Assembly (NCBI RefSeq): GCF_023055435.1
Contig: NW_025964112.1
Location: 20,770,001-20,834,000, forward strand
Direction of reading: 5' to 3'
Source of the DNA: Haliotis rufescens
Taxonomy: Eukaryota
DNA: 64,000 bases
Positions 3,401 to 56,799 of this stretch are shown here, piece by piece. Both the position numbers and the translations under genes were made by a program. The notes below the pieces were generated by a model. The model saw only the letters and a program-made list of their open reading frames with translations, had not been told where the DNA came from and searched no databases. Position 1 is the stretch's first letter. Every line of letters starts with the position of its first letter.

Positions 3401-4044
3401 AATATAAAATACAATAATAAAATTGTCAATGCAAGGTAATATCCAGCCTAGATTTTCTGCCCAAACAGATTCAACTTGGCGTAAAGGGCAAATAGCTGTG
3501 GAAATTATATGAATGGACCTCTGAAAATCAGTGATGACACCAGGTGTTCGCGAAAAGGGTAGGCATATCCTGCCCTGCCGTAGAATTACAGTGTTTCTGT
3601 TATATTCATGCGACTGTCATGGTCTTTGAGCACCACCATTACCGGCTTTAAGCGTACGTTAACTTAGCGTAGTTCTCTTCACCAATCACAATTTCTATGT
3701 TGCAAATCCCGCTTTCTTTCTTCCAAACCTTCCAATTACATTGCAACAACTGAAGACGATTCCAGTGGTCAGGACTGGTAATTCAGAAAGTGATTTGGTA
3801 GGTCATTAAAATGTGTCCCTGCTATTCAATGGGCAGAAGAAGGATTGGAAATGTTTAATGGGTGTGTCAGTGGAGGTTCAGGCCGCCTTTATTAACAATA
3901 TTCCAGCTATATCACGACTTGGGATACCATCAATGGCCTTCACACATTGGGGAAAAAGCTACAGATCATGCCGTTGCTTTGCAACAATTTGTGTAGATTT
4001 TCGAAATCTACGCCCAATTTCGAACCTGCATTACATTTTTGATG

Positions 4045-4050
4045 TTTATT
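4045..4050 (-). promoter_or_regulatory. Candidate polyadenylation signal of the BRICHOS gene
   Basis: AATAAA on the minus strand about 170 nt after the stop codon. Confidence 0.4.
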
Positions 4051-4219
4051 CAACGCCTTTCAAAATATATTATATTATATTATGTCCTTATCTTGTGGTG
4101 TTTGTATAACTTTGTGTGGCATTTACATGAATGCTGTTACTTCCTGTAACGAATGAATCAGAAAACAGCAAGTTGACGACAGTGGTTCTTGTCTCATTGC
4201 TGAGAAGCAAACAGTTTCT

Positions 4220-4362
4220 CTAACAAACTACTGTAACGTCAGTGTTACACGGATCAAACACGACGCCACTTGTGACTCGTCTGGCAAACTGCGAAATGCA
4301 CTTTCTTATTGGCCTCCACTTAAAGAAAAATCCTCTCTTGTGGCGCATGTTGGGGTTGACCT
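4220..4362 (-). CDS. BRICHOS gene last exon (RHKR site and 37-aa mature peptide at 4333-4223)
   Basis: Acceptor CTCTATTTCAG|, phase 1 matches exon 4, stop TAG at 4222-4220. Confidence 0.8.
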
Positions 4363-5358
4363 CTGAAATAGAGTAATATCAATTAACTGTGTAGTGACAG
4401 CATATGATAGCTTTCATTTATAGCTCATCACTCGAGTATAGCATGTTCAAGTACACAATGTTTACCGAGGACAAATCGTATTTGTCCCTGTTTATCTCCA
4501 ATCGATCAGACCCATGTAAATTGGGGTGCTTTAAGTAGTGTCTGTATTTCAACACTGCAGCTTCTTTCTTTTTTTAAAACACACTGTGCTTAAACATTGA
4601 TCATGCCATGTACACCTCCTATTTAGGCCCAGGAAATGTGTGTGACATATTGATCATCATCAGGGAAATTATGCAGGAAAAGGTGGCACCAAATCCAGAG
4701 GTGAACTTTATACTAGGCAACTGAACATTTTGGGGGGGAATGTGCAACGAACAAACTGGAGTCCTGCAGCCAGATACCCAAGAGCGACTGAAATGTTCAC
4801 ATGTAATAATAAGAAGGGGAATGCTCTTATGCTTGTCTTGTCTATGAAGACATGGTGTGTTTGGAGGGGTGGGGGTGGGGTGTCCTTCCTGTAACCCCAT
4901 TTTCGTAATGAGGAGAAGTATACCTCACTGTATACCACTGTAACTGGATAGCAGTCCGATTTCCCCTAACGACAGGCTGCTATCTATTCTATTGCTCTGT
5001 GACGTCATTGGCGTCGTTTCTTGTTCGTGACGTCATCCTATAGTATGTTCTATGACGTTGCTATTTGTAACTCATTGACCTCCGTTGTAAGCTTTTTTCT
5101 CTATAATTTATATAAATAAAGTCACGAACGAGGTTTCTTTAATAAATAATGTCTTTGCTCATCACATTTAATGATATTTAAATACGGTCCCATATCAGGT
5201 CAGTCACAAGCATCTTGGAATTTTTACTGACGGTATATGCTCATGTGGGGTGAGTAGTTCTGTCTGATTGGTCAATCTCACTTTGAGGCATAATAAATAT
5301 ATATTTTATGACTCAAAATGTGCCCGCTTACCATCAGTTAACTCCAAGATGGTTGTTC

Positions 5359-5435
<77 letters not shown>

Positions 5436-7565
5436 TACTAAGATAAATTTAACGTGTGTGATGTGATAGTAGGCTAAGATTATCGGTTCTACATACGTTT
5501 TGCATCAACCAGTCCGGAATATTTGCTGTCCACTAGGAACACTTCGTGATGGAGACAGAAGTCAGCTATGTGTGGTCCAAAGAGGAGTTTTACTGTCCAA
5601 GTCTTCAGTGGTGACAGTTTATCTACTCTGAGCCATTCCTCTTTAACACCGTCCAGCACATCATGAGCCTAATGAACAAAGTATGGGTGTGTGGTTATTC
5701 ATGTCATACTAGACAAGGCAGGACTGGCATAGGTAAACCAGTGGGAGAATGAGCATCTTCCTTACTGTAGGGATACGTTGCGGTATATATTAACCATGTA
5801 GTACCCCGTTCAATTACTATCATATGGTGCATTTGTCAAATACGATGCTATCAAGACAGATATCTTTATACTCAGATGCCATCAAGGCCATCTGACGTGC
5901 GCCATTAAATGCAAACAATAAGAAATTCGTTGTATCATTGAATTATCGTGACAATGAATCATATGCAACAAACCTTGTTTTAAACCTAGTAGACAATTAA
6001 TTCCAAACTCACACGTTTAGCCTCTTCTAAGCGCCGCTTCATGCCTGTCATAGTGGCGTTGAATCGTTGAATGTAGCACTGTTGATCGACTGCATTCCTT
6101 ATGGCTACAAAACTCTGTAAGGTGAGTTTCAAAATAATTAAGTATGAATATTTGCCAGGTATTCCAGGGGCAAGATTGGTATTGTTTTCACATAATATGT
6201 CACAGTATTTTAAACAGTTATTGCTTCTGGAAACACAACTCAAACGAACGGCAGAATCCTTTCGAAACATGAGGCCAAAACATTCAAGAGTGAGTGAGAT
6301 CTTACGCCGCTTTTAGCAATATTCCAGCAATATCACGGCAGGGGACACCAGAAATGGGCTTCACACATTGTACCCATGTCGGGAATCGAACCCGGGTCTT
6401 CAGCGTGAAGAGCGAACGCTTTACCACTAGGCTACCCGACCGCCCCGAAACATTCAAGAAACTGACTATTACTTTTCTTCTTAAAAACAAAATATATATA
6501 TATGTCATCAATGCGAGAAGTATTATACTTCTAGCTAAATATAGAAAGTGAACAATTATTGTGAAAATTTTTATGATGTGTAATGGGATGTAACAAAACG
6601 CTATATGGCTGAAATAATGCCGACGCGACGTTAATTTTTAACTCACTCATTGTAACCGTCATCATACATTCACATTGCGTTGAACAATGGCCAAACGAAT
6701 ACATAATGTGAAAATGGCTTGACCAAATATGGACACGGTGTACCTGTGCATGAATACATTGTTGTAAAACATAGTCGTACAGTGATAGTACGAGTCTACG
6801 TGTTCATGTAAGCCTTTGTTTAAAACATTACCCTTTCAATTTAATCTGATCAGTCTAAGCCTACGCATTTATATCCCCTAAGAGTTTTACGGCGGATTCC
6901 GGATTCCGTTTAAACCGCATTTATATTCCCGTTTAAACTGATCAGATAATTAAGTTGTATTTAATTTAAGATTTGGATTAATTCATGATTGGGAAATGTT
7001 CTTCACCGTTGAGAACACGTGCAGGTTGGTTGTTTCTCTGAAGCTGTCGAGAGCATTGGCAGGTTTGTGTGCTGTCACTTCCATTATGTCAGTGCCGAAT
7101 GTGACGTCGATGGGGATGATCTGGTCTCCAAACTTCCCTACGACATGGTACCCCTACAAACACATGACATTATATTTACATATACGCATCAAACAATACA
7201 CTGTGGAAGTTGCAAACATTTGTTTTAAGCGTTCGCTTACTTCAAACAAATTAAAAAATGTAATTGAATAGGCTACCATCGAAGAAGCTGTTAAGGGCAA
7301 GGTCAGGAGGAAACAACGTACTAGCATGACTGTATATGGTATACAAATATAAACATGTTATAATACAAGTGTAATAATAGTACAAGTGCTGAGAATCCGA
7401 AATGTTAAAGATACGTATAAGTAAATTATTGTATAAATGAGGAGGGATCCGCGACTAACACAGTAATACAAGTGTAAACTGTTGACAATATTGCCGACAT
7501 ACCTGAACTCCCGCACAACATCCAAACAGGAGGACACAGACAGCAACAGCGCTGAAGACTTGCAT
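4220..7565 (-). CDS. Secreted BRICHOS-domain precursor (208 aa) with furin-released C-terminal cationic peptide; coding exons 7565-7503, 7153-7007, 6114-6013, 5668-5497, 4362-4220
   Basis: All four introns are GT..AG with compatible phases (0,0,0,1) and there is no internal stop. Translation: MQVFSAVAVCVLLFGCCAGVQ / GYHVVGKFGDQIIPIDVTFGTDIMEVTAHKPANALDSFRETTNLHVFST / SFVAIRNAVDQQCYIQRFNATMTGMKRRLEEAKR / AHDVLDGVKEEWLRVDKLSPLKTWTVKLLFGPHIADFCLHHEVFLVDSKYSGLVDAK / QVNPNMRHKR-GFFFKWRPIRKCISQFARRVTSGVVFDPCNTDVTVVC*. The BRICHOS pattern (LHxFxxxFVAIR..CYI, then GxxIxxFC) was recognised by eye. Confidence 0.85.
5207..5355. mobile_element. Small MITE-like inverted-repeat element in the last BRICHOS intron
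   Basis: CAAGCATCTTGGAA..ACTGACGGTA pairs imperfectly with TACCATCAGT..CTCCAAGATGGTTG. Confidence 0.5.
5360..5433. repeat. (CA)n microsatellite
   Basis: Perfect dinucleotide run. Confidence 0.98.
5497..5668 (-). CDS. BRICHOS gene coding exon 4 (second BRICHOS Cys, GPHIADFC)
   Basis: Acceptor TTTGTTCATTAG|, 57 open codons plus 1 nt, donor |GTATGT. Confidence 0.85.
6013..6114 (-). CDS. BRICHOS gene coding exon 3 (first BRICHOS Cys, CYI)
   Basis: Acceptor CCTTACAG|, donor |GTGAGT; lies inside ORF 5986..6270. Confidence 0.85.
6290..6447 (-). mobile_element. tRNA-derived SINE (family 1), full length with TSD
   Basis: Flanked by direct repeat AAACATTCAAGA (6278-6289 and 6448-6459). Confidence 0.92.
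7007..7153 (-). CDS. BRICHOS gene coding exon 2
   Basis: Acceptor TTTGTAG|, 49 open codons, donor ACG|GTGAAG. Confidence 0.82.
7503..7565 (-). CDS. BRICHOS gene coding exon 1 (signal peptide)
   Basis: ATG at 7565, hydrophobic MQVFSAVAVCVLLFGCCAGVQ, donor CAG|GTATGT. Confidence 0.85.
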
Positions 7566-8499
7566 GATTTGGGGCTTGATGTCACAAACTAAGAATAAAG
7601 TAAACGATTGGTCATTTTAATGCACGTGATGGTAAGTAAAAGAATGACATTGACTCCACAGTCGATAACAACGTATACATAATGTTGCATAAACCGTCAG
7701 TAAGTTCATTTGTACATGTAACAATAATAAAGTGACGTCTTCTCAGCTGTCGTATGAACATCATGTTTATAATACTTGAACGTATTGTTATAGTGCAAAC
7801 CATTTCAATACTTTTATTTAAAATAGTGCAAACCATATTTCAAAACTTATTTAACATTTCATTTATCTAAATACCTAACTGGTTCAATATGTTTCCAAGT
7901 GCACCGAAATTCTATGCCTTTGTCTGTTTAATATATTCAGCAAACATTCGGCGTATCCCCTTTTATCATAAACCCCTCCGGGCAGGACCCTTAATCTCCA
8001 GCGCTATCTATAAATTCCAATTAACACCTCCTTACGTCGCCGGATCTTACGTATATACATACACGTCGGACAATGACCTTGCCACACGTTACGTAATACC
8101 TCGCTCTACAAAACCCGACTGACATTGTCAGTCAGGGAGACAGCCAGAAGGTAAGTGACAGAGCGAGTCTCCAACCGGGAACATTGGCCACTCGGTCCCG
8201 GTGTGCGTTCTGTCACGTTATTATGAACATGTACCTTTTCGACTCATTTCAACCTGCACCAATAAACATGGCTGTTGTCGTCTTAACTTCACCCCTGAGG
8301 TTTGTCTTCCGTCATCCCCCTGAGCTACCATCCGAGGGCCGACACTTACGCCCTTGGACAGTATGTTTGGCCGTTGATTTCAGCAGGGCGTGTAAGTACA
8401 AATGGTCCAGTGTTCACTTTCAATGCATGGAGAATCGTTACATTCCAGTAGTCCAAGCAATGAGTAAATATCCCAGGCATATACTTCTCCATGAAGATA

Positions 8500-23846: not shown

Positions 23847-25662
23847 ACCCTGAGTACGCTGTGACATGTCTGTATTCAAGTGTGGACCAGATACTTGGGT
23901 ATCTAAGTGTGATAGCACTATAAACAAGTACAAGTGCAAGAAGCAACACACACACACAAAATTGGTGTTCCTAGACCCTGAGTACGCTGTGACATGTCTG
24001 TATTCAAGTGTGGACCAGACACGCCCGTGCTTCATGTCATCAGTAATAACCCACAAATCAGAGAAATAACATACCCATTTCAAAAGGATTGAAACTGTTA
24101 CAATGTTTGTACAAATTACACACAAAGACGGTGTTTGTGGGGGCATGGGATGGGCTGTGATGTTAACACCGAAAACCGGTTGTTTCAGATGCATTTACAT
24201 TGGAGCACTTCATATATGCTGTTAAGAAAAGAAATGGGGGGTTACCTAACGATGGTCTTCTATTTCCTTCAGCTTTCAGCCTGCTGTCAGCCTGTACAGG
24301 CTACTTCACACAAGATTAAATGCAGATATTGGTGTATAGCAACTATATTGTAGAAATTAAGCATCGTTGCGCATTCGCAAGATATTGTCTGTGAGATAAA
24401 GTGTTTCATTTCTATAAAAGATACACGAAGACTAGGGCAACATCAGAGTTATCTACTACCCGATTCAGCGAAGTAGCCTCTTTTGACCCGAAAAGGAGTG
24501 TTGGTGACTTATTTGAATACGATATATGAGCTCACAGTACAAACAGATGTAGAGTAGACATGTTATGGATACGTACTGCATAACAAGAAAATCGACCAGG
24601 TGACATGTATTAGCAAGTCATATTGTTAACGGTTACCTGTCTGTACATTCTATAGCTAAAGCAATACAGAATCATAGGCTATGTTTTCACATGAACGTAA
24701 TATTGATTATCACAACTTTGTGTTGTGCTAATCTTCGTCTTAGAAATTATTCGTTTGTTTGTGCAACTGTGTTGTTGAAATAAAACATTCAGCAAAATAC
24801 ATGTACCTGCAGTTGCAAACGGTCGCCATATAATTCATGATGTAACTTGAGGTACGTCAACAGATACATGTATAACTAATTTCCTTCACTTTCTTTGCTA
24901 AATGCATGATTTTGTATGCAGGTGCTACCAGTGTTGACATGAACTTTTAGGTTAACATTACTATTACATTACTATTACAATAATGTATGTATTTCAAATA
25001 CTTCTCCAACTGAACTCATAACCGTCCGATATATTATATAGTACTTATTTTGATTATTCACACCACTGAAAACTAAAAATTGAATTATTGAATCATCTTT
25101 GCAGTCAATACACAGCATGCGTTATGACCAAGGCTGTATACAAAGATGTGATTCAGTAGAAATCGTGTTTTCCAGGAATGGCATACCATATATGGGATTT
25201 GTAATGTGCACGAACATGTTCAACAGGTAATATATATGAAGAGTTAGGCTGAGGCCGCGCAAAGCGTTACCTGGTCTCACTGTGTGCAAGCTGGGTGGGT
25301 AGACGCTCATATCTCTACCTCTTTGATTTAACTAAGATTGTTCAGTTTAGATTGATGTACATGTTACGTCTTCATTAGTGCACTGACAAATAGTATCATC
25401 AGATAAAGTGTAAACGTTGATATTTTATATATCATTACACTTTATCATCGCATGCACATGACATAGTCTGAATCGTGCAAGGGACTTTGCTTTGAGCGCT
25501 GATATCTTATGATTATGGAAATGGTTTTGTGGTTGATATTTACATCTTGCTTTTCAAAAAGGATATGAAATGTGGAAACATTCGTTCTGTTAATCACAAT
25601 AAGTCTATAAAATAGTTAAGAGGTGACACGTTTCTGTTTTATTAAAGTTAGATTTCTGTTAG

Positions 25663-25704
25663 ACGAACCGGGAACAGACATTTGGAGGAATCTTCAAGAC
25701 AAAA
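25663..25704 (+). other. Candidate upstream exon of GIMAP-A (5'UTR or coding)
   Basis: TTTCTGTTAG|42 nt|GTGAGT; open and in phase with the acceptor at 28647; conserved in the duplicate near 53796. Confidence 0.4.
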
Positions 25705-26319
25705 GTGAGTACCACATGTATACTTCTGTGTTTTTTTGTCATGTATTCAGGACAGTGTGTATATGTTTTAGATAACGATCCATTCCTAAATAATGCGCTC
25801 ATATACACATACTTTGACTACTTTTAAATTCCCCAAATCAACAGGTGATACTGATATATATATGGCAGATATTAACACATAAACGATACGTAAAGCATGC
25901 ATATAAAGTTATTTGTTACACAATAATAAAATAAATAAAGATTTAAAATAATTTAACACAACGCCAGATAATAATCAGTGTCAAACATCTGCCGAAACAG
26001 ATTCCATAAGGCGGTAAAGGCAAAGTGACGAAACCTTTCCGAATATATATCACTGGAAATCAGTGATGACCCCAGGCGATGCTTTACCGGTAGCATCCAT
26101 ACTAAACACTTTTCGTTACTAAAGTCAGCTCCAAAAAGTAGGGAGGTGTGAAAACTCTCTCTAACGGTCGTAGCACTGGACAGCCTCACCTATTATGTTG
26201 ACAAGCGACGAGTCATATCATGTCTACCACATAATTTCTGGAATGACCTAAAAGCTTAGTTGTAAGTTAATGTATTCTTCAGGGAAAATTGAATAGCATG
26301 TACATGGTCTGAAGCAATA

Positions 26320-26432
26320 CGATGACATGCATCAGCCAAGTCAGCAACCCTGACTACCCGATCCCGTTAGCCGCCTTTTACGACAAGCATAGGTTGCTGA
26401 AGACCTTTTCTCTACCCTGATCTTCGCGGGTC
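26320..26432 (-). mobile_element. SINE family 2, 5' fragment
   Basis: CCCGATCCCGTTAGCCGCC..GACAAGCAT..GTTGCTGAAGA..CGCGGG. Confidence 0.75.
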
Positions 26433-26966
26433 AGTTACGAATATGTTCGAATTTAACGGTATGATCTATTAAATGACATACATAGAGGTTATACACACTT
26501 CTCTTGCGTATGCATTTTATTTACCTAATTGATGTTTTGTCATGGGCTCAACTGTCATAAAAAATATTAGATGCATGGTGCCTTTGTATCGTAAAAATAT
26601 GCTTTGGTTCCTAACGTCTTTTCTTCTAGTAAGTTGGTGGTTTATTTTTTATTTTTTTTACAAAACAATGAATTAATCTAATGTGACACCGGTGCGTCAA
26701 AGGACAAAATTATATCGTTGTGTATCTCACCGACCACGCAATTGTACACATGACTAATGGTTTGTGTCACTGCATTCTCTAGGCATCGTGTTTCCAATGT
26801 GAAATCGTATAATTACATATTGATGGTTTATGTGTCCCCAAACATTTGCAGGTTTCACCAAATTTAGGATATGCTCCACAAAGAGGACCATATTGTACCT
26901 TGTCTTTTGCCAATAAGTACATCCCCAACTTACCAGGATTCAAACCAATCTAAATGGTGATACTTT

Positions 26967-28324
26967 CATAGGGCTTTTCCTGAATCTGGCTGCTCCCGCT
27001 GCCACCGCCGCCGCCGCCGCACATTGATTTTTAACCCAAGGATATTACAATATGCATATCTCCCTTTAGGCCCTTGGTAATGTTTTTAATACACTGATCA
27101 GTCATCCTCAAGGTAATATCCTTAAGAAAGGGGCGTTTTAACGATAACACATGAAGCATTCACTGTAGGACATTGAAACTTGCTACATGTCATTCCAAAT
27201 CTGAAATGACAGTGAGTGACTTCAGTGAAAGGTAAAGGTCACAGTGAAGGTCATTCATGAAATATTGTTGCCGTGTTTACTCAAATGGCTTTCTTCTGCA
27301 GTATTATTACGTCTTGTGTATGCCGTGGTTATATTAATTTGATAACAATGTTCTGATATCAGTATCACGGTGACCTATTTTCAATGAATAGTATATGCTA
27401 TATTTTCGTTGTTACATTTAAACGTGGGACATCCTATTTTCTGTTATGAGGCTGTACTCCATTCAAATGTTATTTTTACAAACCGGATGGGAAGTTATCA
27501 AAACAATAATGCCTGTAACGTTCTTATTAATGTAATTGGGACTCTTTTTAAAAGATGTCTTCCATGAGACATGTGTCTTCCCATACCGGAAGTAAAGTAA
27601 TTAAACAAGGTGTACTTATATCGTTCTTATCAATGTACCTAGAGGCATTGGCGTTTTGCTTTAAAATCACACTGTCTATGACATGGGCTTTCAAGGACTG
27701 GAAGTTAAGTCATTAAACCGGATGTGCATATATCGTTCTCATCAATGAATTTAGATGCATTCGCATTGAAACCTTCTGTTTTAAAACCACACTGCAAATA
27801 ACAGGTACAGTAAAGTACGGTTATAACGAACTCAAAGGGACTCCTATTTTAGTTTGTTATAACCGTAGTTCGTTATAAGCATATATACAGCATAACCACA
27901 GCAAATAGTCGGGACTAAAAAGTAAGTTCGTTATATCCGTCAGTTCGTTATAAGCGTGTTCGTTATAACCGTAGTTTACTGTATGTTCAGAAACTAGGGC
28001 GGATATCATTCAACCGGAAGTGGGTATAAATGTATTTCAAACAGCCAGAGGAACAGGTTAAATAATTATCTGCATTGGGCTTGTGTTTCCCAAGCCAGAA
28101 ATGATGTCATTTAACTGAAAGTGATGTCTTAAGAATGGAGATGGCTGTATATTCACAATTGTATAAGCTAGAGGTGAGGTACTTTTAATATGATGTGGTG
28201 TTGCAGTAGGTCGGTAATGGTTTCACACTGGAAATGCGTGGTAGTATTGTGTGACATCTGGGGCCTTCTAGAAATGATGGGTGTGCTACCATTTGGAAAG
28301 TCCTTGCAATCAAGTTTTCTAGTT
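26967..28324 (+). mobile_element. HINE/Helentron-like non-autonomous element
   Basis: Subterminal inverted repeat AGGGCTTTTCC and GGAAAGTCCT, 5' (GCC)n microsatellite, internal ACCGGAAGT-type repeats, CTAGTT 3' end. Confidence 0.55.
27808..27981. mobile_element. Tc1/mariner(pogo)-type MITE nested in the HINE
   Basis: 24-bp TIRs CAGTAAA(G/C)TACGGTTATAACGAAC with TA on both sides. Confidence 0.92.
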
Positions 28325-28650
28325 ATCTACATCATACAATGGACTAGTAATTAAGAAGATTGTATTGTCCATTTGCCTGTACCTTTACGCTGTGTATCTT
28401 ATGTCAAGTTTCAATGAGGGATCTCACACTGGCATGGCGGTAGTGTGAAGCAGACATCTTGATTTCATGTGGTAAGTTGTTTTAGACTAATTGCTACATG
28501 TTACATTTTTTAGCAATATCATCGCTTAAAACGTATTCGGTAACAATGAATTAATTTGAAGAAATCCACATTAAGGAAGGAATACATTTCTGAAGCTTCA
28601 TCCGTCGAGCGAAAAACAATACTGACATTGTTACATTTTCTTGCAGGAGC

Positions 28651-31600
28651 ATGAACAACCAGGTGAAAATGGTTCTGCTTGGTCGTCATGGTTGCGGCAA
28701 AACTGCAGTGATAGAATCATTTCGTTGCACATCCATTACGCAGCCAACATCTTCGCTTTTGGCGGACAATGTTCATACAGTGACAAAGCATGACTCTAAC
28801 ATAAGCATTATTGAAATGACTGGGCTGTTTGCAGAAGGACAAGATAAAAAAGCAAATAAAATGAGACTTGCAGAATCGGTGTACACCTTCACACCAGGCC
28901 CTGATGCTTTTGGGCTTGTAGTTCGAATAGGTCGATTTACGCCAGAAGTGAGGACAATGATAGACACTCTTAGAGAAACGTTTGGTGCAGATATGTTCCG
29001 ATTTACCGTCCTCATCTTTACAAGATTGGATGATCTCAAGTATGATGGCATCACTCTGGAGAAATACCTACAAGAGAGTACACCAGAGCTGAAGAGTGTC
29101 CTTGATGCTTGTGGGGGAAGATACATCGGCTTTGACAACACAGGAACGTGGGAATCCAGAGCGGAGGATGCCGATAAACTTCTATCCATGTTGAAGAATC
29201 TCCAGAAGCAGAACAACAACATGGTCTATACAGTGGCCATGCTCGAGTACGCCACAAGGTGTCAACAGAAGAAAGAGGAAGAAGATCGGAATCAACAAGA
29301 TGAGCGCAACCGAAATATTAAAGAAGAGTTGAAAAGTACCATGAGACAGGAACTTGAAGAACAGATAAGAAGAGAGATGCAAGCTGAACTCACGTCAAAC
29401 ACTCAACAGACATGTATTACAACAGGATGTAGTATGTACACTTTTGTACATTATACTGTTCTGGGCATGGATTCTCACCTTCGTGTTTAATATTATATTA
29501 ATATTCAGTATAATTATTTTTAGTTTAGTATTTAGTGAAATTGTGCAACTATTTAATGGGTACGAGTAATATTTCTACAAATATATGGAATGAGATATGA
29601 ACATCATATACTCTTCAAAAAAAGAAACGCAAAGCCGGATTTGTGTGAGGTAGAAAAATACATTTATACAAGGAACCGTACAAGGTATTGAGCCAAAATG
29701 TTGTGGAGAGAACACTTAGTGATTGTAGTCATCTCAGTTATCGGTACCGGTAGGAAAAGCCCAAGGTGAAGGTCAACTACTATCAATAGTATCGATAGCG
29801 GCCTGACATCTCCTGCATAATGGAAGAAACGAGTATTCCTGGGGAATGGTAGCCCACTCGGCCTGCTACGCAAAACCCAACTACTGCAACGTCAGGGGTT
29901 GTGGTTGACGTCGGCGTAGCCGTCTATCCAATTCATCCCACGGGTGCTTTATCGGGTTCAAATCCGGGGATCTGGAGGGCCAGGGGAGAACATCAACGTT
30001 GTTGTGTAGACAGGTTCTTGTGATCCGTGCTGTATGCGGTTGAGCGTTGTCCTGATGGAATACAGCGTTGCCGTTGGCTGCAATTGGGAGGACGTGTGGT
30101 AGGAGAATATCGTTGATGTATCGTTGAGCCGCAAGATTGCCCTGTATATGGACCATACCTGCCCTGCCATGATGAGAGATTACCGCCCGCATCATAACGC
30201 TACCCCCATCAAATCTGTCCACTACCTGTACGCAGTTTCCGGCGCAACGTTCTTCCCAACGTCTGTAGACCCGTGCTCTTCGATCCCGTCTACGGAGGAG
30301 AATTCTTGACTCGTCGCTGGACCAGACATCTCCTCATCGCAGTTGACGACACCAATGCAGTCGTTGTTGACGATGTTGTCCACTCATGGGATGCGGTTGA
30401 GGTGGCTGTGGTCGTCCTTTCACGTAGGTGGCGCAGTCGGATGTAGCGATGTTGGGCAGGGATGGTTACTCTTGGTCGTCCCGACCTTGGCCGATCACGT
30501 GTTGACCAATGCTGTTGAAACCAATCCCATATCCTTGTGATGGTGCTGGGCGCTACATTGAAAGCCCTAGCTACAGCTGATCGGGATTCCCCTGCCTGCA
30601 AGCGGCCTATGACGTTGTTTCTTTGCACTTCTGTTAATCTTGGCATGTTGTTGAATTGTCACTGTTCTATTGACGCAGATGCCAGGCAATCAAAAACCCT
30701 GCAATTTAATACCGTTCATAGTGCTTCTGCATGTGCACTGGTGCGTTTTTCCGAACCGTACGTGTTTCCCGACCAATGGTTTGCATGTCCTTGCTATGAT
30801 CATTTTGATCCGGGACATTTTCACTGACACTTTAACGGATGACCAAACATATCCGTTTTGCGTTTCTTTTTTTTAAGAGTATATTTCATTTTAAATGTTC
30901 ATTATTTTGTTGTCAAATTTGTTTTATATAACAGAACGTATCACCTTCTTTTTGTGTTGTAATCATAGAGCCACGCAAACTCCAAACACAAATATATACC
31001 AGACAGACTGTTGAATCGGGGGACAAGTTCAATGAGAGAATACCAAAAAAAGGTAAACTTTTTCTTGAATATTTTAGTTTCCTACCCACTGACAAAATCT
31101 ATTAAGTGCTCTTCATTCTTTTAGACATTATGCACGGCATGCGTCATACATTTGTTAGTCTCAAGTACTCTTTAACATATACCTTATTTCCAGGTGCTAA
31201 TCGATCCAAACACGAAAGAGGACCAAGGCCGGAGTTTAAGCCAAAGCCTACAACTCGAAAAGTGCAAGAAAATATCATTTCCCGAGACACTCATGAGCAA
31301 GATGCTGGTATGTGTTAAATGCAGTGTTGCATAATCAGAAATCTCGTAAACGTTTACCATGGCAGAGATATGTTCTGTGTGATCTTTGATTCCACAATTC
31401 AGCTGTAAGGGTTAAATAAGTAAATATAATCATGTTGTGTCGTAAATGTATGAGTGAGTGAGTGAGTATACGTGTGCGTGTGCGAATAATAGATTGTAAA
31501 TTACTAATTACTGTTCAATTGACTTGGCAATAATTAATATATCTTATATTTGTTTGTTTGTAGCTCAAAACGAAAGACATGCAACTGTAGACGACACCAG

Positions 31601-31679
31601 TGGAAATCATGCCAAACCAAAACGAAGCGGGCTGATTGCAAGAATGCTTCATTTTTGGGAGTCTTTTCGCCCAAAATAA
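28651..31679 (+). CDS. GIMAP: GIMAP/AIG1-family GTPase A, copy 1; exons 28647-29431, 31194-31307, 31564-31679
   Basis: G1 GRHGCGKT, conserved box PGPDAFGLVVRIGRFTPE, G4 FTRLDD, G5 FDN, coiled coil. Donor A|GTATGT at 29432, then two phase-1 GT-AG exons ending ..SGLIARMLHFWESFRPK*. Confidence 0.88.
29609..30881 (-). mobile_element. Tc1 transposon with defective transposase, in a GIMAP-A intron
   Basis: TIRs TACTCTT.AAAAAAAGAAACGCAAA with TA flanks; HTH MPRL..RSGRPR (30290-30646); frameshifted DDE half QDNA..PWPSRSPDLNPIKH with the catalytic E replaced by K. Confidence 0.95.
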
Positions 31680-31939
31680 AACTTTGCGTCAGACGGTATT
31701 AATGTGATTAGAACATTTGGTTACATGTCTGATATTTTGTCATGATCCGCAGATAAAGCAAAATCATGTTTATAAGGCACACATAGTGCAACTATTACAT
31801 CATGAAAGACTGCTTAATATGCCTATCATAGGCACATTATGTCAAGTTTCGAATAAAAGTAAACAGAGAAATAAAATTGTATGAATCAATGTATAACAAA
31901 AATCTTTTACTTTGCAAGCATTGTCAAAACACAAAATAA

Positions 31940-32087
31940 GTGAGTGAGTGAGTGAATGAGTGAATGAGTGAGAGAGTGAGTGAGTGAGTGAGTTTGATTT
32001 TACGCCGCTTTTAGCATTATTCCAGCAATATCACGGCGGGGGACACCAGAAATGGGCTTCACACATTGTACCCATGTAACCCGGGAC
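31940..32087 (-). mobile_element. SINE family 1, truncated, with long (GAGT)n tail
   Basis: Matches the 3' body of the 50376 copy. Confidence 0.85.
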
Positions 32088-32329
32088 TTGGAAATTATGG
32101 AAATGGTTTTGTCGCTTATATTTGCTTCAACTCAAACCAGACATAAATGCATTGTCTGAAGCAACACTATTATGACCCTAAGTGCAGAAGCAGAACAACC
32201 TTAACGAATGATCATTCTAGTGCCATTGACATTCCTTGAGTGTCGTTCAAAACCTTGTCCGCTCTAAGGATGATATTACCCAATTTTATTACGGTAATAC
32301 CTAATTCTATGAAAAAGATGATATTACCT

Positions 32330-33262
32330 AATTCTATGAAAACAAATGCCATCCGAGGTTTACTGAGAAAACAATATGTGAAATGCTGGAAATCTACGTA
32401 AAATTGATATCATCCACGTAAAATTTGGGGTAAGATATTTAGGCAAGAAGCAGGCATCCCCATTGGCACCAAGTGTGGCCCCCTTCTTTGCTGGTCTATT
32501 TCTTTATGCATATGAATCCGAATTTCTGTTCGGATTGGCAAAGTCAAAACAAGGTAATTTGGCCAAGAAGTTTTACTTAAGCTTCAGGTACATCGATGAA
32601 CTCATATCGTTAAATAACCATCAAATAGCCAATTCCCTTCCACTGATCTACCCACCTGAACTAGAAACAAAGGAGACCAGTGAGACCGCATAACGATTCA
32701 GAGTGACAAAACACTCTCCACAAGACTGTATGACAAGAGGGATGACTTCAACTTTCCAAAGTCAACTTTCCCTTCATGTCGAGCATTATTCCAGCAGCTC
32801 CAGCCTGTTTACATTTCACAGCTTTTGAGATACAATCGAGCATGCTCTTTCTACCAAGAGTTCAAAGAGCGTCATACGACTCTTGCTAAGAAGTTGTTTG
32901 ATCAATGTTACACAACATTCAAGTTTTCAAAACGTTTTATGGTAGACATGTGGACATTTCCAAGTTTGACGCATCAGTGACAAAAATGATGTCCGATGCA
33001 ATTCCCTATTTTGACTCGTACCATATGTTCCCATGGGGTTTTTTTCAGGTGAACAATTGACTCGCCTTTGCATGTGTTTATGACGGGTGGTACAGGTTGG
33101 GCATGATTCGCTCACCTTTTCGCGGCCACCTGGTATCAGCACTACATGTATTTGATAGCGATTCTTAAACACACTCACATGATATAGTTGGAATCGTACA
33201 ATCGACTCTGCTTTATGCAGAGATTTCTATTAGTTATGGAAAGGATTTTGTCGCTTTATTTA
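32330..33262 (+). mobile_element. Degenerate Penelope-like retroelement RT remnant
   Basis: GIPIG..APFFAGLFLYAYESEF..FRYIDE..IYPPELE..RLYDKRDDFNF with stops and frameshifts. Confidence 0.75.
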
Positions 33263-34057
33263 ATTATTCTATAGTAAACACTTCTTGAGTTACCACAAAC
33301 AAAATGCATGTTTGAGTAAGTTTGACCTTCAATACCAGTGACAAGTATTTCAAGAACACATCAACGGGCTATCAAGCAATTAAACCAAATATGACGTCCC
33401 GAGGAGTTGAGGTCACCATGACACACTACCGTCAGATCACAGCTAACGGCCATGATCTAATTAGGAGATTTAGCTTGTATGTTTTTATTTATTTTGGATT
33501 CGCACTGAAGATTAGATATCTTTTTTTAATTTGGAGCCCAGTGCTTTAGCTAAAAGGAGGTATCTTGTCTACAGTGGGACGACATCAAATTTCAAAACCT
33601 AGTAGTTCTATCTCCATTTTACTATGACGGAAAGAATGATTTCAAAACGGTAGTCTTTGTGGAATGAGTAATTACATATGGGTACATAGGTCAGCGATCT
33701 TCGATGGTTCGGAAAAGGGGTCACAGGTAGTGATAAATTTGAAAAATATTACTCAAGTTCAATATTATCTTCTTAAAATATTAAGGGGTTTTCAAAACGA
33801 ATTTATGAAATATCAATCCATCGAAATATTTTAATTTTCAACGCAACCTGTTGGATATTTGTACTGCTTGACGACTCAACAAAGTCTTTCTTGGACATCG
33901 ACGTCAGAAGTCAATTCTTGGAAATCAATAAAACATTCCCACTGTAGGGGTGACAAAAAGAAAAATTCAACTTTGTTAAATCAGTATTTTTGGGATTATT
34001 TAAGTTGTACTTTTGTAGCAGTTGGTTGAAATATCTCGCCAGCAGTAATTTATTTAC

Positions 34058-34295
34058 GAACTCAGCAACATTCCTGCTATATGACGGCGGTCTGTAAATA
34101 ATCGAGTTTGGGCCAGACAGTCCAGTGAGTGACATCATGAGCATCGATCCACACAAATGGGATACGATGACATACATCAACCAAATCAGCGGGCCTGGCC
34201 ACCCGATCCCGTTTGTCGCCTCTTACAAGCAAAGTCGCCTCTTAAGGCAAGCATGAGTTGCTGAAGCCCTATTCTACCCGGGATCCTCACGGGTC
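34058..34295 (-). mobile_element. SINE family 2, tail deleted in this copy
   Basis: Complete version at 62330-62592. Confidence 0.85.
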
Positions 34296-35035
34296 GGTTA
34301 TTGATTTATCATGTTTACTGTTAATTATTGATTTGAGTCTCTTTATGTTCTTAGAAATATTTATTACTATTAGCCAAAGTAGGCAGCCTAAAAAACTATA
34401 TTGATTGATTTATCTCTACCATAAGATTTATAACATTTTTAGCAGTGTAAATGGCAGCACAAGGATGGAAATTGTTTACAATGAATTTGATCAATTAAGA
34501 ACAACATTTAAAGTTTAAATAATTTAACTATTGATACTGCAGCATCTAAAATAAGATGAAATAAGGATATAAGGAAATGAGTGTCTTGGATCTTGAGGAC
34601 AATTCTGAGAGTTAATTTTAGCGATTTTGAGTTAATCCTTTTGTAATTTTGGAGAATCTATCATCGTGAATGCTAATCATATAAATGCATTATTGAAATA
34701 CATAATTCAGAATAAAGCCGAAATAATGGTAGTTTAAATTGTCTTTTATCTAAAGTTTTGTGCCAAAATGGCATTTTCAGTGCGATTGTTTTACAGGCAT
34801 ATCGAATACGTTCTTGAAATATTAAACTTCATAGCTTAAAGAAGATTGAGTAGTAAAATTATCTTTCAAGCTTGTCAATGAAGGGAGATAACTTTGAGCT
34901 CATGCAATATACATGCACGTGTGGTAAATCCTTTTGAATGATTTTGCACATCGGTCGCTTCTTGCGAGCAACAGTCACCAAAGATGTCCAGACTTTGAGT
35001 GTTTGTGACGAAAGTTATTTATTTTTTTATTTCAG

Positions 35036-38000
35036 TGTGGGTATGTGCAACCTGTTATCATAACAACGATGCCGCCAATGACAGTTGTCAAGGATGTGGA
35101 ACATCCAAATTGACGAGGAAGAGAATTGTGAAAAGGGGTATGAACATCTCTCTTACCAGAATAGTCACGTTTAGCCTTCCCAAAGACAGTTGATTATTTT
35201 GATTACCGATTTTGATTTCAAACATTTTACATAGCATTACCACTTAGTTCCAAACATGCTTTAATCTTATGTTTGGACATAAGTTTGCAGTAGGTAGAAT
35301 ACACATGTATGGATGTGAATTGTGAATTCTTTTCTGCGGATAAACAATACAAAAGTGTTCGACTCAAGAACACTTAACAGTAGGTACTTGTTGAAGTATA
35401 TATCAGAACATATAATAGGCAACAAATACAGTAAGTTTTACTTTCTTTGAGGATACATTCATAACGCAAAATAGTGCGTTGCTCAAACACACCATGCTTC
35501 GGGGAATTTGCCTGCTGCACGTACTTCACGTACTTCATGTAGTATATTTAGTGCAAAAGTTCATATCGTTTTCCAGTCATATAAGTCTTATAAAAGACGG
35601 GTTTGAGTGTCTGTGTATTAACTCGCATAGTCATGTCAAGAAGGGGACACGTTATTAGTCTTTTCTTGATGACAGTATCTTTTTACAACACTTTGACATG
35701 GCTTTAGTATTCTAGCCACATTTATCACACTTTGCGACGTTTTGTGGTACATTTTCTGAAAAAAGTATCCTAAAGTTTTAGTTGTCCATTTTTTGCTGTC
35801 ATGAGTGCTATTTAGGCATGTTATGGCAACGTATGTAACCAACACATTTTCATTATGAATAGGAAAGTTTTCACATTTCGATTTTTACATTCTCCGATTT
35901 TAATGTAGTTCCTTGGTGTTAGTATCTATTATCGTCAAATCTAGGCGTCTTGCTCAGTTGCACAGTTATGTCGTATGAGAGAATCACTTTATTTTCTGTT
36001 GTTGTTAATTCAACCATATTCTTTCGTCTCTTTCCACTGCGCACCAACTTTATTGACAACAGGGGAGTGTTTAACAATGACATAATTAACAGGTATAGTT
36101 CCACTTCATTTCCTTGTAGATGCACAACGGACATCTCCTCCCCTGCCTGTTCAGGCTCCTCCACCTCCTCCATTGCAGATGGTCGATCAAGTCTACACTA
36201 AGCCAACGCAGAAGGTGGCCCGTGTCAATCCTATTCCAAAACCCTCACGACAAGGAATTGGTATGTTCCTAATCTATGGGGCTAGGACAAAAAAATGATT
36301 GTCACATATCTATGGTATAGATTCCTGGTACATCTATTATAGTTGGCCAACAAATGTGGATTAACATTATGTTATATTATTTGATTAAAAACAAGAAAAC
36401 AGCATTATCACTAATGCAACTACTCTGTAAAAAGTAATATGGCACCAATTCTCGAACTCAGTCTACATAAGAATCATTAGCTAACTTCAGGAGTTTCTGA
36501 GAAAACTTGTCCCCATTGCAGACACTGTGCACTTTGTAAATTAACATGGATGAAGGGCCCCAACTGTGTATGCTCCAAATCTAAAAACATGTAACAAGGG
36601 AAGTTACTCTGGGTAAAAAGAATTTACAGGACCAATTTTGCGAACATTGTCTTAGATAAGCTTGTAAAGATTCATTCATGTAACGTAAGTAGTTTCTGAG
36701 AAAACTTGTAAAAAGAAATAATTTACGGCACCAATTTTCGAACTCAATTTTGACAAGCAGCTCTTCGATAAGCATGCAAACTTTCATTCATGTAATTTCA
36801 GTAGGTTTTTTTTAGAAAACTTTTCCCCATTCACACAGTATGCACTAAGTTGAAAATCACCGAGCAAGGGCCATAACGTAAAAAATGAATTCATGACACC
36901 AAATTTCAAACTCATTTGAGAACATTACCAGTAATATTAGTGTGTAAAATTCCATTTCTCAAACCCCAAACTTCATGGTATATGACGAATTTGGCCAATT
37001 TCCTCTTCACATAACCATAGCTAACTATTGGCACAAACTGAAATTCGTGATAACCCTATTAAATTATCACAATATGTTCTTCGCTTTAAGAAAGCAAATA
37101 ATTCTGTAAATACAAGGGATAATAGCTGGTTGAACAATGTCCAGAAAAGTCTTGATAACTGTGGCATGTCATGTGTGTTCAATGACCCATATTTGTACAC
37201 CAGCAAGTGGCTAGTCTCTAAGGTAGATTTAACGTTAAAAGATCAATTTACATAATCATGACGGAGAATTATGTGCAATAGTTACAAAGGAACTTGCTAC
37301 AAATTACTTAAATCTGCCCCATCCTTTGAAACATACCTCCTCCTTCCAAGGACAATATCTTTCCCACTCCTTTTCAAACCTGTAACCATAATTTACCCTG
37401 CTGAGACTGGCCGCTGGCTTGGTATACTGAGAGAAGAAGGAACCTCTACACCTTGTAACTCACCAGCTATTGCTGACGAGTTCCACTATTTAGTTATATG
37501 TCAGGCCTCCGTAGTAGATATATACCAGTAAAATGTTATTTATAGCCTAATCTTAATAAGCTCAAATAATTACTGTGTGCAACGAGAATAGCAGAAATAA
37601 GCAAGTTGTCCAAGTTTATTTCCAATGAGTACAAATGCGTTAGAAATAATACATAAACATACTCTTGATGAACATATACTTGTCTGTAAAACACGCTCTT
37701 GTACCACCGTGGGTGGTTCCATGAGAATAAACTATTTATATTTTGAATTTCTAACAAAAAGAGTTTATTAGCAATTGTGTCCCCTTTTAGAAGCGAACGG
37801 ACAGACGGGCGAACTTTGTGGCGGGGGATAATAACTATCACGATTACTATTTGGTTTATATCTAGGCACCTTTTTTTTGTTTATTCAACTTCGTCATGAA
37901 GTCAGGGGATGTACCAAACGTAATATAACACAGGTACATATGACATATTCATGAAAGTTGGATTGTAAAGTGCTACCATGAGACAATCTAACACAGACAT

Positions 38001-39290
38001 GTCGTATTTCTCAGCGTTTAGTAATATGTCTCATTCTTAAACAATGATATTTGATATATGCTGTATGATGTTTGTGCGCCATATATAAAAGCATTTTTTT
38101 GTCTTTCAGAATTGGGCGAATTGAGACTGGTACTACTTGGTAAAACTGGAGCAGGAAAGAGTGCAACAGCAAACACAATAATGAATAAGAAGGTTTTTGA
38201 TTCAAGATCGTCGATGACCTCGGTAACCGAAAAATGTCAGTTTGTTCATGGCGATTTATTTGGCAACACCATCCAGATTGTTGATACACCCGGATTATTT
38301 GACACCAACACAAAGAAGGAGGTTATTGATACAGAAATTAAGAAATGTATTGCACTTTCGGCCCCAGGACCACATGCCTTTTTGTTGGTTTCATCCTTAA
38401 CCAACAGGTTCACAGAGGAAGAAGGGAAAGTCTTTGACGAAATTGACGACATGTTTGGGGAGCAAGTGCTCAACTACATGGTCATCGTCTTCACTGGAAG
38501 AGATCAGATCGAACCTAAGACAGTGGAGACACACATTCAAGGCGCACCTGACAAATTAAAACAGATTTTAAGTAACGCTGGAGGAGGATATGTCACCTTC
38601 AACAACAGAGGAAAGGAACTTGAAAAGGAAGCGGATGTAAAATGCCTTATTCAACGCATCAAAGACACAGTGAATAAGAATGGAGGGAAACATTTCACCT
38701 CAAAAATGTTCCAGGAGGCAGAAGAAATTATTCAAGAGAGAATCAAGAGAGATAGAGCTGACAAAGAAAAAGAGATGAGAAGGGAAATTGAGGAAGAATT
38801 GCGCGAAGAGATGAACGAGTTCATGCAGAACGAGAGGGAGTATTATGAGAAGCTTCATGAAGCCAATGTGAAAGAAATGGAAGATTTAAAACTTCAACTA
38901 AAGGGAGAGCGGGATACACATGCCAGAAAGCGTTCACTTGTTAGAGAGAATGAGAGGACCATGGGGGAGCTGGTACAGAGTGAGATGGAGATGAGGGCAA
39001 AGAAGAACAAACTTGTAGGGCAGTTGCAGAAGGCTGATGGTGAAGAGAAAGTGCAAATGCAGCGTCAACTGGCAAATGTTGGGGAGGAGGTGACGCGCAT
39101 ACTTGCTAAAAGGAAGAGAGTAGAAGATGAAGTCACAAATGACCGATTTTCAGCAGAATGTAATTTGAGAGCACAACAAGTAAGAGAAACTGAAAGGGAA
39201 AACATACAGAACGAAGATGAAGCAACACTCAGTAGATTCGCTGCAGGCATGAAGAATATGGGGAGGCGTTTTCTCAAGTTATTTAAGTAG
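35036..39290 (+). CDS. GIMAP: GIMAP/AIG1-family GTPase B with N-terminal RanBP2-type zinc finger and Pro-rich linker; exons 35036-35137, 36120-36260, 38110-39290; first exon unresolved
   Basis: Canonical GKTGAGKS, SVT, DTPG, PGPHAFLLV..RFT.EE, FTGRD, FNN and a long coiled coil. Two upstream phase-1/phase-1 exons: WVCATCYHNNDAANDSCQGC and DAQRTSPPLPVQAPPPPP. Confidence 0.85.
36388..37838 (-). mobile_element. HINE-like element in a GIMAP-B intron
   Basis: Minus-strand 5' end TTATCCCCCGCCAC..GTCTGTCCG resembles the 39890 element; 3' hairpin GCATTA..TAATGC followed by CTTGTT. Confidence 0.5.
37020..37745 (+). mobile_element. 3' fragment of a LINE nested in the HINE
   Basis: WLNNVQKSL..CGM; ETGRW..ADEFHYL..C; AATAAA near 37726. 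Confidence 0.65.
38110..39290 (+). CDS. GIMAP: GIMAP-B main exon (AIG1 domain and coiled coil)
   Basis: Acceptor TTTTTGTCTTTCAG| at 38109; the ORF-track start at 38058 is intronic. Confidence 0.95.
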
Positions 39291-40979: not shown

Positions 40980-41081
40980 TTAAGTAGGCATACATGGTGT
41001 GACATTTAGTGAAGATGAAGCAACACTTCGAAGATTCGCTGCAGGCATGAAGAATATGGGGAGGAGTTTTCTCAAGTTATT

Positions 41082-56473: not shown

Positions 56474-56799
56474 ATCTACATCATACAATGGACTAGTAAT
56501 TAAGAAGATTGTATTGTCCATTTGCCTGTACCTTTACGCTGTGTATCTTATGTCAAGTTTCAATGAGGGATCTCACACTGGCATGGCGGTAGTGTGAAGC
56601 AGACATCTTGATTTCATGTGGTAAGTTGTTTTAGACTAATTGCTACATGTTACATTTTTTAGCAATATCATCGCTTAAAACGTATTCGGTAACAATGAAT
56701 TAATTTGAAGAAATCCACATTAAGGAAGGAATAAATTTCTGAAGCTTCATCCGTCGAGCGAAAAACAATACTGACATTGTTACATTTTCTTGCAGGAGC

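What the first reader, a model, noticed from the sequence alone, without database searches (positions are those of the whole stretch)
4223..4333. Predicted mature 37-aa peptide: cationic aromatic head, beta-prone tail, three cysteines
Seen: GFFFKWRPIRKCISQFARRVTSGVVFDPCNTDVTVVC follows R-H-K-R, which fits the R-X-K/R-R furin consensus. It has six K/R, all in the first 19 residues, and two D (net about +4), is rich in F/W/V/I/T, and has Cys at 12, 29 and 37. The peptide and its cleavage site sit on their own exon. Inference: a C12-C37 disulfide-closed beta-hairpin with a membrane-seeking GFFFKW head; the spare Cys could form a covalent dimer. A signalling or amyloid-like structural role is an alternative.
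Basis: partly seen in the sequence, partly recalled or inferred. Interest (0 to 1): 0.8.

Follow-up and report, generated by a model that had tools for sequence, protein, structure and literature searches.

The report
Abalone chaperone-carried candidate defence peptide
An abalone gene makes a secreted chaperone-type precursor that probably releases a short, positively charged peptide, laid out like the antibiotic peptides so far described only in marine worms, although its activity is untested and its chaperone lacks a residue that almost all such chaperones keep.

Summary
The peptide lies on the minus strand (4333-4223) and is the last exon of a five-coding-exon, 208-aa gene: signal peptide, divergent BRICHOS domain, RHKR, 37-aa peptide. 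The protein is identical to an uncharacterised Haliotis rufescens entry, and all four coding introns are seen spliced in RNA-like contigs. The furin-type site, three Cys and net +3/+4 are kept in H. asinina and H. rubra. The proposed C12-C37 beta-hairpin is not supported. Residues about 7-21 look like an amphipathic helix, and prolines interrupt the tail, so a C29-C37 loop with C12 spare (nicomicin/HfBRI-38-like) fits better. Two points are new. First, all 13 abalone family proteins carry Val/Ile at the BRICHOS hallmark Asp (published: 97% Asp, none hydrophobic), while 9 of 9 clam relatives keep Asp. Second, the genome holds at least 14 family genes in three subfamilies that share the exon layout but carry unrelated last-exon cargoes (cationic 3-Cys, poly-Cys, Cys-free hairpin-like). 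A host-defence peptide is the best reading (about 0.45). The charge is modest, the pro-region is not acidic, and most relatives' peptides are not cationic. No activity is shown.

The parts
8235..8400 (-). probable upstream non-coding exon (its 5' end was not determined; 8400 is the edge of the stretch laid)
   Evidence: joint 7587-8235 and piece 8235-8400 in 1 of 4 runs (X6); weak
7503..7565 (-). coding exon 1: ATG and predicted signal peptide, residues 1-21 (acceptor at 7588)
   Evidence: hydrophobic N-terminus judged by eye, no signal-peptide predictor run; intron 7152-7502 spliced in 3 of 4 runs
7007..7153 (-). coding exon 2: residues 22-70, first BRICHOS strands
7016..7018 (-). Val67, at the position of the hallmark BRICHOS Asp (Bri2 D148)
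   Evidence: aligned to the D of the HDF motif of 8rnu_A; 16 residues before the first BRICHOS Cys in 22 of 22 family rows; D148 context from the mutagenesis primer and the 113-231 construct in PMC9627735
6013..6114 (-). coding exon 3: residues 71-104, with Cys83 (6078-6076), N-glycosylation sequon N89-A-T and helix 1
5497..5668 (-). coding exon 4: residues 105-161, with helix 2 and Cys142 (5557-5555)
4334..4345 (-). RHKR furin-type cleavage site (residues 168-171), within exon 5 (4362-4220)
   Evidence: R168, K170, R171, G172 invariant in 6 of 6 type-A proteins; R171 invariant in 18 of 18 aligned family proteins
4223..4333 (-). predicted mature 37-aa peptide; Cys12 4300-4298, Cys29 4249-4247, Cys37 4225-4223; stop 4222-4220
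3600..4219 (-). 3' untranslated region (at least to 3600, the edge of the stretch laid)
   Evidence: one X5 contig spans 5668-5497, 4362-4082 and 4074-3600

Best explanation
A secreted BRICHOS proprotein that delivers a membrane-active host-defence peptide. Shown: the gene, its splicing, a BRICHOS-type fold for residues about 21-160, and a conserved R-x-K-R site before a conserved 37-aa, net +3/+4, three-Cys peptide. Inferred: (1) the signal peptide is removed and the BRICHOS domain keeps the hydrophobic peptide from aggregating in the secretory pathway (family knowledge). (2) A furin-type convertase cuts after RHKR (about 0.8). (3) On anionic membranes the aromatic head anchors and residues about 7-21 fold as an amphipathic cationic helix. 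A Ser/Gly-Gly hinge follows, then a C29-C37 loop, leaving Cys12 free for an intermolecular bond. My odds for the pairing: C29-C37 0.5, C12-C29 0.25, C12-C37 0.15, other 0.1. (4) It damages microbial membranes, as nicomicin-1 and the HfBRI peptides do. The Asp-to-Val change probably removes the pH-titrating residue described for Bri2 and proSP-C (inference).
For: Gene and splicing. BRICHOS: Pfam PF04089 at E 0.004-0.0004 for the three orthologues; all 12 of 12 family members match at E<=1; clam relatives pass the cut-off (27.0 and 32.4 bits); the top Foldseek row is proSP-C BRICHOS 2yad (E 0.071, prob 0.97); the atlas's best hits are BRICHOS clusters (0.94, 211 of 256 features). Site, Cys and positive charge are conserved in three species. 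Helical moment 0.78-0.81 for windows within residues 7-21; residues 9-20 give p 0.036 against shuffles; model helix 6-23. The peptide varies more than the domain across species (16 of 37 against 36 of 140 columns, p 0.044). A sister subfamily is an 11-copy cluster with two broken copies and an excess of amino-acid change in its cargo (11 of 30 against 28 of 327 non-synonymous sites, p 8e-5). The same precursor layout yields AMPs in polychaetes, including helix-plus-disulfide-loop types (PMC6265681; PMC10745061).
Against: Net charge is only +3/+4, and the C-terminal half is acidic. The pro-region is net +1 to +7 in type A, whereas the nicomicin BRICHOS sits in an acidic proregion. The family's cargoes are not generally cationic: 7 of 9 clam peptides are net negative and type C is -2 to +1, so family membership does not imply an AMP. 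The peptide is identical in the two genomic copies and 36 of 37 identical in H. cracherodii. Pairwise peptide-versus-domain differences are not significant (p 0.06-0.11). The helix window was chosen after a scan, is weaker in the orthologues (p 0.068, 0.081), and residues 1-13 of both orthologues have a high beta moment (0.68-0.76). In the sister cluster the ratio 2.1 is not significantly above neutral (p 0.26). The three Pfam scores (17.8-21.1 bits) are under the 25-bit cut-off. Bri23 is said to have no antimicrobial activity, and nicomicin-2 is inactive on bacteria.
Confidence: 0.45

Rival explanations
1. The peptide is a structural or cross-linking secreted cargo (amyloid-like or disulfide-polymerising, for mucus, egg coat, cuticle or shell matrix). 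BRICHOS delays its assembly until it is cut.
For: Sister cargoes on the same exon look like assembly elements: 4-6 clustered Cys in type B, and strictly alternating V/I/T without Cys in type C. An odd Cys number allows chains. BRICHOS cargoes are generally aggregation-prone (PMC9714404). Ten of the 18 tail residues are V, T or F.
Against: Prolines in the tail and no beta periodicity there. A conserved cationic amphipathic segment is not needed for this role. No tissue data.
Confidence: 0.25
2. The BRICHOS domain or the uncut protein is the effector (a gastrokine-like secreted mucosal chaperone). The tail is a tethered or discarded element, or is cut again at R18-R19.
For: The domain is more conserved than the tail. 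The atlas's third hit is a gastrokine-2 cluster (0.92). One clam relative has only a 13-aa, Cys-free tail (P0007). R18-R19 falls exactly between the cationic and acidic halves in two species.
Against: The site, three Cys, W6-R7-P8 and D27-P28-C29-N30-T31 are invariant in 6 of 6 type-A proteins, which implies selection on the tail. R18-R19 is Q-R in H. rubra.
Confidence: 0.17
3. The released peptide is a signalling or growth-regulating ligand, like the mature C-terminal parts of chondromodulin or tenomodulin (family knowledge, recalled).
For: Low copy number (two in this assembly), 62-78% identity across three abalone species, and a furin-type site.
Against: No likeness to a known ligand was found; unrelated cargoes in close paralogues argue against one receptor-constrained ligand.
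Confidence: 0.13

Closest known systems
Polychaete BRICHOS-AMPs: nicomicin-1/-2 and HfBRI-38a-c
   Same: Signal peptide, BRICHOS, dibasic site, then a 33-38 aa cationic peptide with an N-terminal amphipathic helix and a C-terminal single-disulfide element (passages of PMC6265681; PMC10745061 parts 1-2).
   Different: A gastropod, whereas reviews say polychaetes only. Three Cys, not two. A 9-residue loop if C29-C37, against a 6-residue Rana box. Pro-region not acidic. Hallmark Asp replaced. No activity shown. No direct sequence comparison with these peptides was made.
Polaricin (Amphitritides sp.)
   Same: BRICHOS-derived peptide with an unpaired Cys in an intermolecular disulfide (table passage; named as BRICHOS-related).
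   Different: 19 aa with one Cys; here 37 aa with three.
Human Bri2/ITM2B, gastrokines and OAF (general BRICHOS proproteins)
   Same: Domain order, the strand-4 to helix-2 disulfide pair (C83, C142), a convertase site and C-terminal cargo.
   Different: A short N-terminal signal rather than a type II anchor after a cytosolic part. Val/Ile in place of the Asp. Only weak sequence likeness (E 0.55 to 8rnu_A). The genome has a separate ITM2-like gene that keeps HDF (L042).
Uncharacterised venerid clam BRICHOS proteins (Mercenaria, Ruditapes)
   Same: The nearest non-abalone relatives found (20-25% identity): same layout, several paralogues.
   Different: They keep HDF (9 of 9). Their cargoes are 13-31 aa, mostly anionic, 8 of 9 with three Cys in a C-x2-C arrangement.

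Membership tests
BRICHOS proprotein superfamily | N-terminal signal peptide or membrane anchor | tested here: inconclusive
   Hydrophobic residues 3-19 on their own exon, by eye; no predictor was run
BRICHOS proprotein superfamily | Pfam PF04089 above the curated cut-off (25 bits) | tested here: not met
   17.8, 18.3, 21.1 bits for the three orthologues; clam relatives reach 27.0 and 32.4, so homology is by transitivity
BRICHOS proprotein superfamily | Fold: extended antiparallel sheet with two helices | tested here: met
   Model strands 21-87, helix 92-104, strand 113-117, helices 127-141, strand 146-149, block pLDDT 73-91; top Foldseek row 2yad, but E 0.071; VIA Z 4.8, rmsd 2.9, 66 of 77 aligned, tied with unrelated LolA/LolB rows, so structural support alone is modest
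BRICHOS proprotein superfamily | Two conserved Cys (strand 4, helix 2) | tested here: met
   C83 and C142 invariant in 18 of 18
BRICHOS proprotein superfamily | Hallmark Asp at the end of strand 2 (97% Asp, 2.7% Asn, 0.3% Glu/Ser in PMC9627735) | tested here: not met
   Val in 12 and Ile in 1 of 13 abalone proteins; Asp in 9 of 9 clam proteins
BRICHOS proprotein superfamily | Convertase site before a C-terminal cargo | tested here: met
   R-x-K/R-R in 18 of 22 rows and a dibasic site in 22 of 22 (P0006 and the fragment P0024 left out)
BRICHOS proprotein superfamily | Chaperone activity on its cargo or on amyloid | not testable with these tools
   needs a bench assay
BRICHOS-AMP family (polychaete) | Short cationic, hydrophobic, Cys-containing C-terminal peptide | tested here: met
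   37 aa, net +3/+4, GRAVY 0.14-0.25, three Cys in 6 of 6 type-A proteins
BRICHOS-AMP family (polychaete) | Disulfide-closed beta-hairpin (classical members) | tested here: inconclusive
   Low-confidence model and moments favour a helix; orthologue heads have a beta moment; helical members also exist
BRICHOS-AMP family (polychaete) | Acidic pro-region (stated for nicomicins) | tested here: not met
   net +1 to +7 in type A against 'acidic proregion'
BRICHOS-AMP family (polychaete) | Phylogenetic grouping with the AMP clade of BRICHOS domains | not tested
   no polychaete sequence was returned by any search; the tree holds only abalone and clam rows
BRICHOS-AMP family (polychaete) | Demonstrated antimicrobial, membrane-damaging activity | not testable with these tools
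   needs MIC and permeabilisation assays

The most novel reading that the evidence does not exclude
Abalones have evolved their own BRICHOS delivery platform, independent of the worm one. One Asp-less, presumably pH-insensitive chaperone is fused to a swappable last-exon cargo, now diversified into a cationic helix-loop antibiotic (this gene), an expanding cluster of poly-cysteine peptides, and a Cys-free amyloid-like hairpin. This gene would then be the first mollusc BRICHOS-derived antimicrobial peptide in the literature searched, and the family a natural test of whether the 'essential' Asp is needed for client chaperoning.
Probability: 0.3. Interest if true: 0.75.

Novelty: new variant of a known kind. 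Interest (0 to 1): 0.52.

Why it matters
Reviews up to 2022 state that BRICHOS-derived antimicrobial peptides occur only in polychaetes, and the BRICHOS passages of 2025-2026 reviews list only worm examples. An active abalone peptide would extend the class to molluscs and add an unrecognised immune effector in a farmed animal. Separately, the BRICHOS Asp is reported as 97% conserved, with no hydrophobic replacement among about 2000 domains, and it controls anti-amyloid behaviour in human Bri2 and proSP-C. A whole natural clade with Val/Ile there, carrying three kinds of cargo, is a ready-made test of what that residue does.

Tried and rejected
Complex prediction of domain 22-160 with peptide 172-208: no answer (score 0.02, mark 0.34; the alignments were not used; peptides are outside the tool's tested range). 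It is not used as evidence either way. In the full-length model the tail had pLDDT under 50, but that alignment forced unrelated tails together, so it says nothing on docking. The mature peptide found no Pfam family, no usable atlas hit and only chance PDB rows (E about 0.9); none of this shows novelty. The profile A2 search of PDB gave only ARNT PAS rows at E about 0.8, rejected as chance. The wide structural search had no row at Z 8 or more; LolA/LolB/ependymin rows (Z 4.5-6.1) are read as a common curved sheet. Run search: no RNA holder listed on record; the runs are guessed to be RNA; 4 of 24 were laid, all contigs, so expression level, tissue, strand and which genomic copy is expressed could not be read, and whether the joined form exists in DNA runs was not given. 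P0006 (1213-aa repeat protein) was dropped as unrelated, and P0024 as a fragment. The C201 hit (E 0.48, L041) showed no family exons. The clam protein P0017 found nothing in G000: not found with this query. dN/dS for this exon across species could not be computed, because only proteins of the orthologues were available; amino-acid variability was used instead. The pairwise pN/pS of 3.17 for type B was set aside as non-independent, in favour of minimum-step counts. An arenicin-1/Bri23-like C-x16-C spacing for C12-C29 is recalled, not confirmed in any passage read. Earlier-findings look-ups returned nothing.

Full report
OBSERVATION. The stated peptide is on the minus strand, 4333-4223, after R-H-K-R (4345-4334) and before TAG. 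Composition is as described: six K/R, all within residues 1-19 (chance 0.012), two Asp, Cys at 12, 29 and 37, net +4, pI 9.6.

THE GENE. Four further exons with GT-AG introns join it into a 208-aa frame: 7565-7503, 7153-7007, 6114-6013, 5668-5497, 4362-4220, intron phases 0, 0, 0, 1. A search with exon 4 returned 3 proteins of 9 candidates. P0001, named as an uncharacterised Haliotis rufescens protein, equals the model; P0002 (H. asinina) and P0003 (H. rubra) are 74% and 73% identical over 208 ungapped columns. Four of 24 listed runs were laid. They are contigs, guessed to be RNA. They skip the introns at 4362-5497, 5667-6012 and 6114-7007 in 4 of 4 runs and at 7152-7502 in 3 of 4. So the gene, in this or closely related animals, is spliced as modelled. 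A second copy lies 76,110 bases further along the contig, 98.5-98.9% identical over about 9.5 kb, with three amino-acid differences outside the peptide and none inside. It may be a recent duplicate or an unmerged haplotype.

THE DOMAIN. Residues 61-148 match Pfam BRICHOS at E 0.004-0.0004 but at 17.8-21.1 bits, under the cut-off of 25. All 12 members of a family alignment match at E<=1, and clam relatives pass the cut-off. The atlas's best clusters are BRICHOS. An AlphaFold2 model gives a confident sheet-and-two-helix domain at about 21-160. Its top Foldseek row is proSP-C BRICHOS, at E 0.071; in the wide search that chain scores Z 4.8, no better than unrelated LolA/LolB rows. C83 and C142 are invariant in 18 of 18 aligned proteins. 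Together this makes BRICHOS homology secure, though no single test is strong.

THE MISSING ASP. The family profile aligns its H-V-F motif with the H-D-F of human Bri2 (8rnu_A, E 0.55). That D is D148: it is chain position 36 of a 119-residue chain, the paper's construct is residues 113-231, and its D148N primer covers this motif (counted by eye). The position is 16 residues before the first Cys in 22 of 22 rows. It is Val in 12 and Ile in 1 of 13 abalone proteins, and Asp in 9 of 9 clam proteins (P0006 and P0024 dropped). PMC9627735 reports 97% Asp, 2.7% Asn and 0.3% Glu/Ser among single BRICHOS domains. In a 17-row tree the 10 abalone rows and 7 clam rows are split at 100/100 (no outgroup). 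A separate ITM2-like gene in the same genome keeps H-D-F at the same spacing (L042). The published survey drew on profile-detected domains, so sub-threshold families like this one may simply have been missed; that is inference.

THE FAMILY. Searching G000 with P0001 gave 35 matches; fetched stretches resolve into at least 14 genes in three types with the same exon boundaries and the cleavage site plus cargo on the last exon. Type A: this gene, two copies. Type B: 11 copies on C90, cargoes of 17-30 aa with an Ala-rich start and 4-6 clustered Cys. L037 has a stop in exon 2, L031 a 4-base loss in exon 4, and exon 2 of L039 was not found in the stretch fetched. Type C: one gene on C112, with a Cys-free cargo of alternating V/I/T around a Gly-Pro turn. 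In the 8 intact type-B copies, the first 14 cargo codons need 11 non-synonymous and 2 synonymous steps, against 28 and 23 in the domain (ratios 2.1 and 0.35). The excess per non-synonymous site is significant (p 8e-5), the N/S contrast is borderline (p 0.06), and the cargo is not significantly above neutral (p 0.26). Relaxed constraint or gene conversion is therefore not excluded. Outside abalones only venerid clam proteins were found; their cargoes are net negative in 7 of 9.

THE PEPTIDE. In 6 of 6 type-A proteins the R-x-K-R-G junction, three Cys, W6-R7-P8, G23 and D27-P28-C29-N30-T31 are invariant, and net charge is +3 or +4. It varies at 16 of 37 columns against 36 of 140 for the domain (p 0.044; pairwise tests p 0.06-0.11). 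Folded alone it gives a helix at 6-23 with low confidence (pLDDT 55). The moment of residues 9-20 is 0.80 at the helical angle (p 0.036, window chosen after the scan) and 0.31 at the strand angle; orthologues give p 0.068 and 0.081 (scale values recalled). Against this, residues 1-13 of both orthologues have a strand moment of 0.68-0.76. A C12-C37 hairpin would centre its turn on V24-V25 and put Pro28, and Pro34 of the orthologues, in a strand; residues 24-37 show no strand periodicity. A C29-C37 loop after a helix and a Gly hinge matches the layouts of nicomicin and HfBRI-38, with Cys12 spare as in polaricin. C12-C29 stays possible. Pairing was not determined.

HOW IT WORKS. Most likely the proprotein is secreted with its cargo shielded, cut by a furin-type enzyme, and the freed peptide acts on microbial membranes (0.45). 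Rivals: structural or polymerising cargo (0.25), domain as effector (0.17), signalling ligand (0.13). Gene, splicing, domain type and conservation are shown; cleavage, chaperoning, pairing and activity are inferred.

LITERATURE. Searches: BRICHOS with mollusc, Haliotis, gastropod, abalone, bivalve terms, Crassostrea, snail, polychaete and polaricin terms; six locus or protein ids, 0 papers. No title or abstract start described an abalone BRICHOS peptide; most listed papers were seen only as listings. Seen in more detail: PMC9714404, parts 1-2 of 3; PMC10745061, parts 1-2 of 8; passages only of PMC11168071, PMC9627735, PMC6265681, PMC6780910, PMC11767717, PMC4203926 (one table row, a mussel BRICHOS transcript up-regulated by toxic algae), PMC10608444, PMC13001179, PMC10182729, PMC9756803. 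No supplements or figures were read. The supplementary alignments of PMC9627735, abalone transcriptome tables and subscription papers could hold these proteins or other non-Asp domains.

VERDICT. Real, expressed and previously uncharacterised. A new variant of a known kind: a BRICHOS proprotein lacking the hallmark Asp, with a plausible but unproven defence peptide. Interest 0.52.

Noticed in passing
G000:C90:11.11-11.61 Mb (L029-L039): Cluster of 11 paralogous BRICHOS-type genes (10 on minus, 1 inverted) whose 17-30 aa cargoes end in runs of up to six Cys, some with His; two copies broken. Possible metal-binding, lipidated or cross-linking peptides (speculation).
   Followed up: partly
G000:C112:8960210-8963934 (L040): Single paralogue with a Cys-free cargo of about 21 aa, alternating V/I/T around Gly-Pro, a textbook amyloid-prone hairpin pattern; orthologues P0005 and P0015 differ in net charge (+1, -2).
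   Followed up: partly
window 28594-29487, 56743-57636 and 38055-39287 (+): Three AIG1/GIMAP GTPase reading frames (Pfam E 2.7e-31 and 5.2e-64; the 56743 frame is a near copy of 28594), immune-associated neighbours of the gene.
   Followed up: partly
window 24166-35703 and 52295-64000: Tandem segmental duplication, 98.5-99.2% identical, offset about 28.1 kb; also 1-978 repeated at 48959-49936. Real duplication or assembly effect not resolved.
   Followed up: no
window 44549-47464 (+): 972-aa open frame of a LINE-type retrotransposon (endonuclease and reverse transcriptase domains).
   Followed up: no
window 29884-30658 and 58018-58807 (-): Tc1/mariner-type DDE transposase in two frames, present in both duplicated blocks.
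   Followed up: no
window 6288-6446 (intron 2) and about 1629-1782: High-copy SINE-like repeat; very many contigs of all four runs lie on 6288-6446.
   Followed up: no
window 4074-4082: The window's 3' UTR lacks about 162 letters that stand in contigs of 3 of 4 runs; the alignment to the second genomic copy breaks at the same place.
   Followed up: partly
G000:C34:406000-415999 (L042): ITM2-like BRICHOS gene keeping the canonical H-D-F motif; the only Pfam BRICHOS match over the cut-off in the genome search.
   Followed up: partly
P0007, P0008, P0016-P0023: Multi-copy BRICHOS family in Mercenaria and Ruditapes with short, mostly anionic C-x2-C cargoes; all named uncharacterised.
   Followed up: partly
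window 39213-41759: Nested tandem repeats (about 100-bp and 171-bp units, plus a 1.2-kb duplication) at the end of the 411-aa GIMAP frame.
   Followed up: no
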